Source: the human T2T-CHM13v2.0 reference genome, Homo sapiens
DNA: 64,000 bases
Reading direction: 5' to 3' (one strand)
Assembly: GCF_009914755.1 (NCBI RefSeq)
Contig: NC_060947.1
Shown: positions 736 to 64,000 of the stretch, piece after piece
Numbering within the stretch: the stretch's first letter is position 1
Layout of the letters: the number at the start of each line of letters is the position of its first letter
Position numbers and translations under genes: made by a program
Notes under the pieces: model-generated
The model's input: the letters and a program-made list of their open reading frames with translations, nothing else
Told to the model about the DNA's origin: nothing
Database searches by the model: none

Positions 736-1180
736 TGTGTCTTAGTCTGTTTTGTGTTGCTGTAACAGAACGCCTGAGACTGGATAATTTAAAAATAAAA
801 GAGGTTGATTTAGCTCATGTTTCAGCAAGCTGGGAAGTAGGAGGAGCATGGCACCAGTAACTGCTCAGCTTCTGGTGACAGCCACCTGCTAGGCCAAAAC
901 ATAGTGGAAAAGGCCAAAGGGGAAGCAGACACGTGCAAAGAGGGAAAAACCGAGGGGCATGCTGGCTTTATGACAAACCTACCGTCATGGGCACTAATCC
1001 AGTCTCACCAGAGCCGGTACTCACTCACTACCTCCAGAACGGCAGCAAGCTCTTCATGAGGGATCTGTCTCCATGACCCGAACACCTCCCACAAGGCCCC
1101 ACCTTCCAACATCACCACACTGGGGATCCAATTTCCCCATAAGTTTTGGCGGGGACAGACGAATCATATCCAAACCATAG
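736..1180 (+). mobile_element. MST-family MaLR solo LTR (5'-truncated copies at 50545-50925 and 53698-54080)
   Basis: TGTCTTAGTCTGTTTTGTGTTGCTGTAACAGAA...CAAACCATAGCA. Confidence 0.75.
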
Positions 1181-2571
1181 CAGTATATTTCTATATTCCC
1201 AGGATCTGGAAAGATCCCAATAAGATGAATTTTTTTTATAATGTGCATTTTTCTGTGCACTTAATGTGTAATAAAGAATGGGATGCTTGGACTTTGTCCC
1301 TGAGTCCTGGGAGATAACCTCTAATCCCTTGCAATTTCCTGAGTGACACTGTCATTCCTGATGGGTCCCATGGACCACACTTCATGGTTTATGCTAATGA
1401 GGTGAGTCATGGGAGGCCCCTAGATAGTTTGTGTGATGAGATGACTCCAAATGGAGGCTGGCCAGACCAGAAAGACCAATCATATGACTAGAGGGTTGGG
1501 GCATTGAACTATGTGATATCAGCCCAGTCACCAGAGAGAGGGAGGGAGGCTGTAGATGGAGTTAAACCAGATGGCCAACTAACAGATGGCCAACACACAG
1601 GGTTTATCTGAATTATCTCATCTGCCATTACCAGGAGAAGACATAGGGCTTATTCCCATATCAGTGATCACTCCTCAGTCTTTACTGGTTCCTCATTTTC
1701 TCTCAAAATTCTCTTTCTGGGGATGGGAGGATGTTGAAAATGTTCTATATTTTGATCTGGATGGCGGTTACATGGGTGTATAACTGTGATAAAATTGTAG
1801 ACTTATGTTTCTGTGATTTGCTGTATGTAGGTAATACCTCAATTTTTAAAAGACGTCATATAAAAGTGGAAATACATGGTGCAAGCTGGAAGAAGATCTT
1901 TATCCTATATACAATTGACAAAAGATTGGTATCAATAATATATTTTGAGAACTTGTAGAAATCAATAAGAAAGACAAACAACCCAGTAAGAAAATAGGCA
2001 AAAATCATGAACAGGAATTCCATAGAAGAAGGAACCTATGTGGCCAATAAACACATGAAGATATGCTCAGCTCATCAGTAGTCAGGGAAATGCTAAACAT
2101 GACCTCAAGATAAATCTTGTACCCATTTGATTGGCAAAGAATAAGAAACCTAGCAACATCAAAGGTTAGAGATAACGCAGAGCAGTGGGATCTCATACAG
2201 CTTGCAACATGTTGGGAATATAAACGAACACAACCAGTTTGGAAAACAATGTGGCATCAATATATGAAGTAGGTCATTGCTAACTCAGCAATTCCTATCA
2301 ATGTCCACTGGACAAGAATTTCACAGCAGCACTGGCCACGGTAGCAAAAACCTGGGACCAATGCAAATGCTCATGAACAAGAGAATGCCTAAACTGTGGT
2401 ATATGCACACCATGATACACTATGTAGCAAGGCAAATGGGTGAACTGCAGTTCCATAGTCAACAATGGATAATGTTAGTATAAGTATGAAAAAAGTAATT
2501 CCCACAAGACTACATACCGTGTGACACCCTTTTCATAAGGTTCAAAATCAAGCAAAACTGAAGAGTTTAAT

Positions 2572-2860
2572 GGCCGAGCACAGTGGCTCACGCCTGTAAT
2601 CCCAGCACTTTGGGAGGCAGAGGTGGGTGGAGTGCTTGAGTCCAGGAGTTTGAGACCAGCCTGTGCAACATGGCTAAACCCCGTCTCTCCAAAAAATTAG
2701 CCAGACATCACAGCGCGCGCTTGTACTCCTAGGTACTCGGGAGACTGAGGTGGGAGAATCACCTGAGCCAGGGAGGTCGAGCCTGCAGTGAGCCAAAATC
2801 ATGCTACTGCACTTCAGACCGAACAATCAGAGTGAGACCCTGTCTCAAAAACAAAAAAAG
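2572..2860 (+). mobile_element. Alu (old; rearranged homologs at 48505-48800 and 55823-56110)
   Basis: Dimeric Alu with A tail. Confidence 0.85.
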
Positions 2861-60200: not shown

Positions 60201-61520
60201 CTGTTCACAACAGCCAAGACGTGAAATGAACCTAAGAGCCCATCAAATGGATGAATGGATAAAGCACATGTGTATGTGCACACACAATAGAATAGTATTG
60301 AGCCTTTTTTAAAAAAATAAAAGGAAATCCTGTCATTTGTGGCAACATGAGTGAATCTGGAATATATTATGTCGAGTGAAATAAGCCAGGCACAGGAAGA
60401 CAAATACTGTATGATCTCACTGCGATGTGGAATCTTAAAAAATCAAACTTTTTAGAAACAGAGAATAGAATGGTGGTTACCAGGGTCTGGGGCTGGGAAG
60501 GATTGGGGAGATATTGGTCAAAGGATACAAAACTTCATTTGGACAAGAAGTCTAAGTTCAAGAGATCTATTGTAAACAAGGTGACTATAGTTAATAATAA
60601 TGTATACTTGAAAATTGTTAAGAGGGTAGGTTTTAAGTGTTCTCACCACAAAAGATGAAAGGTATGTGAGTTCATACATATTGTAGTTAGCCTAATTTAG
60701 CCATTGTACAATGTATACGTATTTCAAAGCATCATGTTGTGCACTATAAATATATACAATTGTGTCATTACGAATAAACAAAAATAAAATACAAAGGAAT
60801 GAAATAAATTCCATTTGTTCAATAAAACTGATGTGATACTGGTGAAGATGTGCAGAAACTGGAACCTTTGTGCACTGTTGGTGGGAATGTAAAATGGCAC
60901 AGCTGCTGTGGAAAACAGTATGGCAGTTACTCAGAAAACTAAAAAGAGAATTACCATATGATCCAGTAATTCCATTCTGTGTCTATATCCAAAAGAAGAG
61001 AAATCAGAGTCTCAAAGTGCTGTTTGTACACCCCTGCTCATAGCAGCATTATTCATGAGAGCCAAGAGATGGAAGCAACCCAAGTGTCCACTGATGGATG
61101 AATACAGAAACAAAGTATGGTGAGTTATTATTTGGCCATTAAAATGAATTATGATTTCGCCCATAAAAAGATGGAATTCTGATAAATGCTACAATGTGGA
61201 TAAAACTTTAGGACATTATGCTATAAAATGAGTCAGTCACAAAAGGACAAATACTACATGGTTCCACCTGTATAAGGGATCTAAAATATTCAAACTCAGA
61301 AACAGAAGGTAGAGTGGTGGTTTCCAGAGGCTGGGGGGCAGGGGAAAACGAGGAGTTGTTTAGCGGGTATACATTTCAGTTTTGCAGTTGAAGACATCCT
61401 GGAGATTGGCAGCACAGAACTGCGAATATATTTAACACTACTGAACTGAACACTGAAAAATGCTTAAGATGGTAAATTTTATGTTCCGTGTATTTTAACA
61501 TAACTCAATAGAAAAGTGGT
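57240..61520 (+). mobile_element. Old L1 fragments with Alus (57383-57665, 59536-59832)
   Basis: P2 mirror of 43110-47390. Confidence 0.85.
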
Positions 61521-61789
61521 GTAATTTCTATCTCTGGAGTGGGCCCTGGAAAAAAATATCGATACTATGATGACTCTCATAGATACTTTTTCAACCCAGA
61601 GCCAGACCTTCGTCTACTCAACATCTCCACTTGGATACCTAACACACATCTCAGATTTAAACATCCGAAACCAAACTCCTGACATTAAACACAAGAAGCA
61701 AGAAATATGAACATATTTTCTGATTCCACTAATATAAAAGTACAGAACAGTCAACACCAAGCCATATCATTATTATTTCTTGAATTTAA

Positions 61790-64000
61790 CTTTTTTTTTA
61801 AGTTCGAGGGTACACGTACAGGTTTGTTACATAGGTAAACTTGTGTCGTGGGGGTTTCTTGTAGAAATTATTTCGTCACCCAGTGATTAAGCCTAGTACC
61901 ATTTGTTACTTTCCCGGTCCTCTCCCTCCTCCCACCCTCCACTGTCCGATAGGCTCCGGTGTGTGTTGTTCCCCTCTTTGTGTCCCTGTGTTCTCGTCAT
62001 TTAGCTCCCACTTATAAGTGGGAAGATGCGGTATTTGGTTTTCTGTTCCTGCATTAGTTTGCTAAGGATAATGGCCTCCCCATCCAACCACGTTCCTGCA
62101 AAGGACCTAATCTCATTCTTTTTATGGCTGCATAATATTCCATAGTGTATATGTACCACATTTTCTTTATCCAGTCTACCATTGATGGGCATTTAGGTTG
62201 ATTCCATGTCTTTGCTATTGTGAATAGTGCTGCAATGAACATACACGTGCACGTGTCTTGATAATAGAATGATTTATATTCCTTTGGGTATATGCCCAGT
62301 AATGAGATTGCTGGGCTGAATGGTACTTCTGTCTTTAGGTCTTCGAGGAATCACCACATTGTCTTCCACAATGGTTGAACTAATTTACACTCTCACCAAC
62401 AGTGTATAAGTGTTCCTTTTTCTCTGCAACCTCGCCAGTATCCATTATTCTTTTACTTTGTAGTAATAGCCATTCTGACTGGCGTGAGATGGTATCTCAT
62501 TGTGGTTTTGATTTGCATTTCTCTAATGGTCAGTGACGTTGAGCTTTCTTTCATGGGATTGTTGGCCGCATGTATGTCTTCTTTTGAAAAGTGTCTGTTC
62601 ATGTCCTTTGCCCACTTTTTAATGGGGTTGTTTGGTATTTTTCTTGTGGAACTTGTTTAAGTTCCTTATAGATGCTGGATATTAGATCTTTGTCAGATCC
62701 ACAGTTTGCAAAAATTTTCTCCCATTCTGTAGGTTTTCTGTTCACTCTGTTGACAGTTTCCTTTAGTGTGTAGAAGCTTGCTCTTTAGCTTAATTAGACC
62801 CCATTTGTCAATTTTTGCTTTTGTTGTAATTGCTCTTGGTGTCTTCGTCATGAAATCGTTGCTCGTTCCTGTGTCCAGAATATGATTGCCTAAGTTGTCT
62901 TCCATGGTTTTTATATTTTGGGGTTTTAATTTAAGTCTTTAATCCATGTTGAGTTAATTGTTGTATACGGTATGATATACTTTGGCTGTGTCCCCACCCA
63001 AATCTCCTCTTGAGCTGTAGCTCCCATGATCCCCACGTGTTGTGGGAGGGATCCGGTGGGAGGTAATTGAATCATGGGGACGGATTTTTCCCGTGCTGTC
63101 CTCGTGATAGCGAATAAGTCTCATGAGTTCTCATGGTTTTATAAAGGGCAGTTCCCCTGCACATGCTGTCTTTTCTGCCGCCATGGAACACACACCTCTG
63201 CTCTTCCTTCGCCTTCTGCCACGATTGTGAGGCCTCCCAAGGCATGTGGAACTGTGAGTCCATTAAACTTCTTTACTTTATAAATTACCCAGTCTCGGGT
63301 ATGTCTTTATTAGCAGCAAGAGAACAGACCAGTACCTGGTGTAAGAAAGGGATCCAGTTGCAGTCTTCCATGTATGGCTAGCCAGTTATCTCAGCACCCT
63401 TTGCCGAACAGAGAATACCTTCCCCATTGCTTGCTTTTGTCAGGTCTGTCAAATATCAGAGAGTTGTAGGTGTGCGGCTTTATTTCTGGGCTCTCTATTC
63501 TGTTCCATTGGACTCCGTGTCTGCTTTTGTACCAGTACCATGCTGTTTTGGTTATTGTGGGCCCGTGGTATATTTTGAAGTCGGGTAGCGTGATGCCTCC
63601 AGCTTTGTTCTTTTTCGCTTAGGATTGCCTTGGCCACTCAGGCTCTTTTTCAGTTCCATATGAATTTTAAAATAGTTTTTCTAGTTCTGTGAAGAATGCC
63701 AATGATAACTTACTAGGAATCACATTGAATCTGCAAATTGCTTTGGGCAGTATGGCCAGTTTAATTATATTGATCTTCCTATCCATGAGCATGAATGTTT
63801 TTCCATTTGCTTGTGACATGTCTGATTTCCTTGAGCAGTGTTTTGTAGTTCTTCTTGCAGAGATCTTTCACCTCCCTGGTGTGGTGTATTCCCAGGTATC
63901 TTGTGTGTGTGTGTGTGTGTGTGTGTGTGTGTGTGTGTGTGTGGCAATTATGAATGGGACTGTGTTCCTGATTTGGCTCTCTGCTTGACTGTTGTTGGCA
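61790..64000 (-). mobile_element. L1 copy with internal MST/THE1-type LTR
   Basis: P2 mirror of 40637-42840. Confidence 0.85.

What the first reader, a model, noticed from the sequence alone, without database searches (positions are those of the whole stretch)
795..64000. Palindrome nested inside a palindrome: the same block appears three times in alternating orientation
Seen: an old diverged inverted repeat centred ~29980 with a ~135-bp spacer, and a near-perfect one centred ~52350 with a ~110-bp spacer, sharing an arm. Inference: P2 folded back P1, giving gene-pseudogene-pseudogene-gene order. This predicts a second intact copy with its ATG near 75.1 kb, off-window. The CXorf49/CXorf49B palindrome is known; the inner older palindrome and successive fold-back history are the less obvious part.
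Basis: partly seen in the sequence, partly recalled or inferred. Interest (0 to 1): 0.7.

Follow-up and report, generated by a model that had tools for sequence, protein, structure and literature searches.

The report
Decayed palindrome inside a living palindrome
A known mirror-image repeat on the human X chromosome carries in each arm a decayed head-to-head pair of the testis gene CXorf49, and this nesting leaves matching stretches 47 kb apart that likely cause a known deletion of one gene copy.

Summary
P2 is the known X palindrome P8 (arms 57.9 kb, centre ~52,350, ~107-bp spacer, CXorf49B ATG at 75,151 as predicted). P1 is a ~90% head-to-head pair (125-bp spacer at 29,918-30,042); its partner copy is a pseudogene. 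P8 is conserved in macaque, its symmetry continues outward in exact register as decayed arms (9.1% non-CpG, more than P1's 6.0%), and its centre is AT-rich repeat with no ancestral counterpart. Identity here dates the last gene conversion, not the duplication. Additions: the P1 junction occurs a third time 51 kb upstream, in a cluster of eight block copies; one copy keeps the unfolded state. P1's arms still exchange sequence (899-bp exact patch). Nesting makes that patch a direct repeat 47.2 kb apart, and the published primers for the CXorf49 deletion (1.4% of X chromosomes) bracket it, predicting a 9.57-kb product: recombination between nested copies is the likely cause. The authors may already show this in a figure I could not read. 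Verdict: known palindrome, ordinary mechanisms, unusual nested variant with a testable consequence.

The parts
1..52298 (.). In-window part of the left arm of P8 (P2); the arm starts 5.6 kb left of the window
785..29917 (+). Copy c of the CXorf49 block (left arm of the decayed inner palindrome P1)
25706..29620 (-). CXorf49 (RefSeq); 514-codon frame intact, ATG 29,486, Pfam DUF4641
   Evidence: annotation in the task
29918..30042 (.). P1 spacer, 125 bp: the ancestral upstream continuation of the promoter, followed by the switch to the inverted copy
30043..50938 (-). Copy d (right arm of P1, inner part of the left arm of P8)
30477..32020 (+). Pseudogene in d: ATG 30,477, frame open for 127 codons only, 2.07-kb deletion at ~30,945 removing the rest of exon 1, exon 2 and part of exon 3
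8133..14523 (+). Endogenous provirus (RNase H, integrase, envelope remnants; hosts LINC00891), present in c and f only; its two ~400-bp LTRs share 382 exactly identical bases
17400..18751 (+). Near-identical (converted) patch in c; 899-bp exact core 17,790-18,688
38679..40039 (-). Same patch in d; exact core 38,749-39,647, a direct repeat of a stretch 47,200 bp further on in copy f (outside the window)
33398..33425 (+). Site of the published forward primer for the P8 deletion breakpoint (in d)
19903..21464 (+). Stretch holding two AluY-type insertions found only in c and mirrored exactly in f
49546..49865 (+). AluS-type insertion shared by d/e and the outside copy h at the same site, empty site in c/f
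50948..53675 (.). P8 centre: mirrored 28-bp minisatellite (41.6 and 37.6 copies) around an 87% AT core
52299..52405 (.). P8 spacer, about 107 bp, unpaired between the arms
52406..64000 (.). In-window part of the right arm of P8; from 53,685 copy e, mirror of d. The arm runs on 46 kb beyond the window and holds CXorf49B

Best explanation
The known X palindrome P8 carries in each arm a decayed head-to-head pair of the CXorf49 block; the two levels likely arose in one old burst of inverted duplication, and gene conversion likely keeps P8's arms identical while only patching the inner pair, leaving direct repeats 47.2 kb apart that are predicted to cause the known CXorf49 deletion. Steps: (1) shown: the block exists in an unfolded form (copy h); (2) inferred: one template switch 125 bp upstream of the duplicated promoter made the head-to-head junction; (3) shown: that same junction lies at three places (a|b, c|d, f|e); inferred: it was copied after it formed; (4) inferred: an inverted duplication about the P8 axis copied the region at about the same time, roughly 40-55 million years ago on a crude clock; (5) shown: 57.9 kb of arm is near-identical, the outer ~10 kb has decayed in register; conversion as the cause is established for these palindromes in print; (6) shown: d/e lost the frame; c/f kept it; (7) shown: c, d, e, f share an 899-bp exact patch; inferred: a crossover there between d and f (or c and e) removes 47.2 kb, the centre and one CXorf49 copy.
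For: Junction shared by c|d and b|a, absent in h. All copies diverged within a narrow band: non-CpG c-d 7.6% in the distal part (526/6,902), c-h 8.6%, d-h 8.0%, b-g 8.2-9.2%, outer P8 arms 9.1% (340/3,724). Outer arms in exact register: offset 3,587 = 5,122 (L1) - 1,535. P8 conserved with 2 intact genes in chimpanzee and rhesus. Mosaic of informative sites, 66 c+d, 53 c+a, 22 c+h of 141, in tracts. Longest identical c-d run 1,124 columns against a maximum of 130 in 200 shuffles. Published P8 breakpoint primers map at 33,398 (+, in d) and 90,166 (-, in f): 56,769 bp apart in the reference, 9,569 bp after a crossover in the exact patch, and the PCR is listed as long-range. The paper reports two deletions with breakpoints in 'tandem repeats'.
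Against: No ape or monkey sequence could be read, so order and age rest on one genome; conversion lowers c-d divergence by an unknown amount, so 7.6% is a floor and P1 could still be clearly older. The d+h Alu absent from c shows the history is not two simple folds. Rhesus P8 arms are 38.5 kb against 57.3 kb in human, so the inner pair may be missing or different there. The junction microhomology is about 3 bp read through ~12% decay. The deletion size and breakpoints (Table 2, Fig. S10 of the paper) were not readable; any crossover or non-homologous join between the primers could also give a long-range product. The boundary L1 looks younger (about 5% from two other L1s, which are 4.6% apart) than the outer-arm decay, so it did not start that decay.
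Confidence: 0.62

Rival explanations
1. One reading: P1 formed long ago, decayed, and a much later fold-back at ~52,350 made P2.
For: The c|d and f|e junctions are exact mirrors including spacer orientation; d is cut off at the centre while c and h run on for 4.8 kb; two young-looking AluY copies and the provirus are in both arms. The present arms could have been remade, ending at the L1.
Against: Outer arms decayed more than P1 arms (9.1% vs 7.6% distal, z=2.7; 6.0% overall); P8 present in rhesus; centre is repeat with no ancestral match, and centres of these palindromes are reported to erode.
Confidence: 0.15
2. The P8 axis came first; the inner pair arose in one arm and was carried to the other by arm-to-arm recombination.
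For: Outer arms and the b/g pair are the most diverged mirror pairs; insertions up to 6.4 kb are mirrored; rhesus arms are 19 kb shorter, close to the 20.9-kb length of d.
Against: The same junction lies outside the near-identical arms at a|b, 14 of 123 spacer bases different, so it is old; copying 20 kb between arms is not shown.
Confidence: 0.13
3. A head-to-head unit (c d) was duplicated in tandem while its arms were still near-identical; conversion then chose the long axis, and one spacer flipped.
For: c/e and d/f are direct repeats; near-equal divergence of all copies fits.
Against: It does not by itself give the mirrored flanks from -15,391 to 785.
Confidence: 0.07
4. Assembly artefact: arms this identical are one sequence placed twice.
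For: 0 substitutions over 53 kb.
Against: Same arm lengths in hg38; palindrome resolved in chimpanzee and rhesus clones; microsatellite lengths differ between arms; listed as a low-diversity palindromic pair in HiFi genomes.
Confidence: 0.02

Closest known systems
Human X palindrome P8 (Jackson et al. 2021, PMC8327919)
   Same: P2 is P8: arm lengths 57.3 kb in hg38, CXorf49 in both arms, conserved in chimpanzee and rhesus.
   Different: The text I read does not describe the ~90% inner pair, the third junction, or the decayed outer arms; its definition (>99%) excludes them. Spacer is 520 bp by their k-mer rule in hg38, ~107 bp by alignment here.
P8 spacer deletion removing one CXorf49 copy, 1.4% of 1000 Genomes males (same paper)
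   Same: Its breakpoint primers bracket the d/f direct repeat found here.
   Different: Size and breakpoints not readable; the link to the nested pair and to a converted patch is my inference, possibly anticipated by their Fig. S10.
Fold-back inverted duplications (Hermetz et al. 2014, PMC3907307)
   Same: Single-copy spacer between inverted arms with short inverted microhomology.
   Different: Spacer 125 bp against 766-70,466 bp in patients; interstitial and fixed, no terminal deletion; the template may have been a sister copy, not the same strand.
Physically nested X palindromes P18/P19/P20 (coordinates in Table S1)
   Same: One palindrome within another on the X.
   Different: Those lie in the spacer of the outer one and are all >99%; here the inner pair lies within each arm and is decayed, which creates direct repeats.

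Membership tests
Large X palindrome (Jackson 2021), applied to P2 | Inverted arms >8 kb | tested here: met
   57.9 kb
Large X palindrome (Jackson 2021), applied to P2 | >99% arm identity | tested here: met
   99.8% including the minisatellite
Large X palindrome (Jackson 2021), applied to P2 | Arms closer within than between species (concerted evolution) | not testable with these tools
   No primate sequence; reported as an average over 12 conserved palindromes
Large X palindrome (Jackson 2021), applied to P1 | >99% arm identity | tested here: not met
   87-97% by piece; not a member, though it works like a decayed one
Fold-back inverted duplication, applied to P1 | Spacer is the ancestral single-copy continuation of one arm | tested here: met
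   Copy h carries arm + spacer + further upstream sequence
Fold-back inverted duplication, applied to P1 | 2-8 bp inverted microhomology at the junction | tested here: inconclusive
   About 3 bp by eye from c, b and h, through ~12% decay
Fold-back inverted duplication, applied to P1 | Both arms copied from the same template | tested here: inconclusive
   c+d share two 2.3-kb deletions but d+h share an Alu that c lacks
Fold-back inverted duplication, applied to P2 | Spacer is the ancestral continuation of one arm | tested here: not met
   Centre is minisatellite and AT-rich repeat with no counterpart in c or h; the original junction may have eroded
NAHR deletion substrate | Direct repeats flanking the lost segment | tested here: met
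   c/e and d/f, offset 47,200
NAHR deletion substrate | Several hundred bp of unbroken identity (threshold recalled, not from a call) | tested here: met
   899 bp exact
NAHR deletion substrate | Carrier breakpoints fall in the repeat | not testable with these tools
   Only primer positions available
Palindromic AT-rich repeat (PATRR; features recalled) | AT-rich near-perfect hairpin of several hundred bp | tested here: met
   87% AT over 52,130-52,600; DNA fold -244.5 kcal/mol, 0 of 20 shuffles as stable
Palindromic AT-rich repeat (PATRR; features recalled) | Cruciform extrusion and recurrent translocation | not testable with these tools
   A ~107-bp imperfect centre would hinder extrusion; no data

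The most novel reading that the evidence does not exclude
A living palindrome carries a dead one that is not quite dead: occasional conversion between the inner arms writes ~1-kb perfect patches into all four copies, and because nesting puts them in direct orientation, each new patch arms a recurrent 47.2-kb deletion (and reciprocal duplication) of CXorf49. Two symmetry axes born together competed for conversion, the outer axis won, and its arms have since receded by at least 10 kb; none of this is described for P8.
Probability: 0.4. Interest if true: 0.58.

Novelty: new variant of a known kind. Interest (0 to 1): 0.4.

Why it matters
It gives a base-level, checkable mechanism for one of the two most common X-palindrome deletions, and predicts two mirror-image forms, repeated origin and a reciprocal duplication. 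It shows in one locus that arm identity dates the last conversion and not the duplication, that palindrome arms can recede, and that the LTR clock can fail inside a palindrome. How X palindromes are born is described as little known in the paper that catalogued them; this locus keeps a birth junction and its unfolded template side by side. The processes themselves (template switch, conversion, NAHR) are all known.

Tried and rejected
Dating P2 by arm identity: rejected (conserved in rhesus; decayed outer arms). Dating the provirus by its LTRs (2 of 396 different): rejected, since 7 of 7 sister LTR pairs differ by 5.2-9.5% and the nearest of 8 compared relatives is 6% away; the 7 pairs were picked by position from 42 matches, and one pair is 16 kb apart and may not be one element. 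L1 insertion as the cause of outer-arm decay: not supported. Reading a fold-back junction at the P2 centre: no informative match of spacer, minisatellite or AT core elsewhere in 264 kb, only other AT repeats. Trees of the copies: only b+g (93, 100) and c+d in one segment (97) are supported; other nodes 64-78 and change by segment. A recalled PRDM9-like motif: no hit in 16,500-20,000. A clean inversion breakpoint for g at 121,854: not found; the mirror position of g needs a flip between its flanking inverted repeats plus a loss on the left, which is inference. Literature for the inner pair: searches found no description; the '47 kb' hit in PMC12350158 concerns SHOX.
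Full report
Scope. The window is CHM13 chrX:70,122,001-70,186,000. I read it with 50 kb upstream and 150 kb downstream; coordinates are window coordinates, negative or above 64,000 outside it. No other primate sequence was available.

1. Observation. Self-alignment shows block c (785-29,917), its inverted copy d (30,043-50,938) at 87-97% by piece, and a direct copy e from 53,685; 40,637-64,000 is its own reverse complement at 99.0%. A shuffled d gives nothing over 22 bp. The P1 spacer is 125 bp (29,918-30,042); the P2 spacer is ~107 bp near 52,299-52,405 inside an 87% AT core flanked by a mirrored 28-bp minisatellite. 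P2 extends from -5,596 to 110,226. Of 58 arm-to-arm substitutions in 57,844 columns, 55 lie in the central repeat and 3 in the outermost 4 kb; none lies between -1,953 and 51,527. The first 60 coding bases of CXorf49 recur at 75,151. In d/e the frame from the homologous ATG (30,477) is open for 127 codons and a 2.07-kb deletion follows. So the layout and the prediction hold.

2. P2 is known. It matches P8 of Jackson et al. 2021 (PMC8327919): hg38 arms of 57.3 kb (Table S1), CXorf49 in the arms with 2 copies each listed for human, chimpanzee and rhesus (Table S6 row), arm lengths 53.2 kb in chimpanzee and 38.5 kb in rhesus. The paper attributes arm identity to ongoing conversion and reports unstable centres.

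3. The wider cluster. All 9 genome matches to the gene's 5' part lie within 210 kb on this chromosome. They resolve into eight partial block copies. Outside the window: a (about -38,200..-21,570, LOC100129291) and b (-21,430..-15,395, LOC101059915); the rest of e (to 74,594); f (74,720 onward, CXorf49B); a 5.1-kb L1 at 110,227-115,348; decayed outer arm 115,349-121,854; g (125,350-137,148, in LOC101060274); h (139,505-186,294). Copy h continues from promoter through the 125-bp spacer into further upstream sequence; c|d instead switches at the end of the spacer to the inverted copy, and b|a makes the same switch at the same place, in opposite orientation (spacer differences 14 of 123 and 15 of 119). 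The junction therefore formed once and was copied (inference from identity of position). Its form resembles patient fold-back junctions (PMC3907307), with a shorter spacer and about 3 bp of microhomology that decay makes uncertain.

4. Chronology. Non-CpG divergence: c-d 7.6% distally (526/6,902), 6.0% overall (1,092/18,214); c-h 7.3-10.0%; d-h 7.6-9.3%; b-g 8.2-9.2%. Beyond the near-identical arms, -15,391..-7,132 pairs inverted with 115,349..121,854 at 9.1% (340/3,724), and the register shift equals the L1 inserted on the right minus the bases only on the left (3,587 = 5,122 - 1,535). b and g are sisters (84 of 94 informative sites in one segment, 15 of 28 in the other; support 100 and 93) and g lies between inverted repeats, so it may be a further part of the old mirror (inferred). 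The P8 axis is thus not younger by divergence than the inner pair. Scaling all-site values (8.8-10.3%) by the 5.5% human-rhesus arm divergence at 25-29 million years gives roughly 40-55 million years; this assumes a constant rate. Against a tidy history: an AluS-type element sits at one site in d and h (50 of 299 bases different) with an empty site in c, whereas c and d share two 2.3-kb deletions relative to a and h, in or beside the converted patch. Informative sites alternate in tracts (66 c+d, 53 c+a, 22 c+h of 141). The P2 centre breaks d in mid-block and holds only repeat; a fold-back and later erosion would look alike.

5. The inner pair still exchanges. Longest identical runs against 200 column shuffles: c-d 1,124 (null max 130), c-a 282 (108), d-h 200 (101), c-h 105 (117, no excess). 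These runs ignore insertions in the partner; the exact c-d match is 899 bp. A provirus found only in c/f (empty site in d, e, h) has LTRs identical over 382 bases with mismatched ends, while 7 of 7 sister pairs differ by 5.2-9.5%: conversion is the likely cause.

6. Consequence. Nesting makes c/e and d/f direct repeats. The exact patch is at 17,790-18,688 = 64,990-65,888 and 38,749-39,647 = 85,949-86,847, offset 47,200. The paper reports a P8 deletion removing one CXorf49 copy in 1.4% of 1000 Genomes men. Its breakpoint primers (Table S10) match exactly at 33,398 (+) in d and 90,166 (-) in an LTR of f, and at the mirror positions: 56,769 bp apart in the reference, 9,569 bp after a crossover in the patch. 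P5 and P8 are the only 2 of 7 breakpoint assays marked long-range, and two of nine deletions are said to have breakpoints in 'tandem repeats'. I infer that P8 is one of them and that the repeat is this patch. That supports the mechanism and lowers its novelty.

7. What I read. PMC8327919: abstract, Results parts 1-3 of 4, Discussion part 1 of 2, two Methods sections, Tables S1, S4, S5, S9, S10, S11 whole, single rows of S2, S6, S7, passages of the code archive; Tables 1-2 were not held as text and the supplementary PDF (Figs S5, S9, S10, S14) was too large, and these bear directly on novelty. Its bioRxiv version, PMC8981503, PMC11890787, PMC13616518 (0 mentions of CXorf49), PMC11168930, PMC3907307 and PMC12350158: passages only. 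Ten searches found no description of the inner pair, third junction or outer arms; subscription journals and segmental-duplication tracks, which would list ~90% pairs, were not searched. Alu subfamily labels, the NAHR length threshold and PATRR features are recalled.

8. Verdict. Observation confirmed; interpretation partly supported. P8 is known; the decayed pair inside each arm is a real structural variant of a known kind with one testable consequence. Interest 0.40.

Noticed in passing
window 8,133-14,523 and mirror 90,114-96,501: LINC00891 and its mirror LOC100132741 lie on a provirus with integrase, RNase H and envelope remnants; the first exon starts in the 5' LTR and the last covers the 3' LTR. 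The primer-binding site looks complementary to tRNA-Trp (recalled, untested). Family not named.
   Followed up: partly
window 8,152-8,533 vs 14,141-14,522: LTRs identical inside, different at both ends; an LTR clock would date an old element as recent.
   Followed up: yes
window 50,948-53,675: P8 centre is a PATRR-like AT-rich hairpin with mirrored 28-bp minisatellite; nearly all arm differences are here. Probably length-variable between people.
   Followed up: partly
-20,929 (+), LOC101059915: Copy b keeps an open first exon at 69% amino-acid identity to CXorf49, and copy a (called a pseudogene) an open first exon at 80%; a third or fourth family member may be functional.
   Followed up: no
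window 29,486-30,477 and -21,966..-20,929: Head-to-head ATGs are about 1 kb apart in a GC-rich stretch (64% GC, CpG o/e 0.64 at the in-window junction), so each junction places two promoters back to back.
   Followed up: no
124,476-125,903: A further small inverted pair (550-bp arms, 90.5%) upstream of copy g, centred near 125,190.
   Followed up: no
110,227-115,348: Boundary L1 has an inverted 5' part and stands in place of 1.5 kb with no evident target-site duplication, as in L1-associated deletions.
   Followed up: partly
window 25,769-26,050: 282-bp identical run between CXorf49's last exons and copy a: likely conversion between gene and pseudogene.
   Followed up: no
-13,143..-11,672: A ~38-bp tandem repeat in the left outer flank, missing from the right outer arm.
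   Followed up: no
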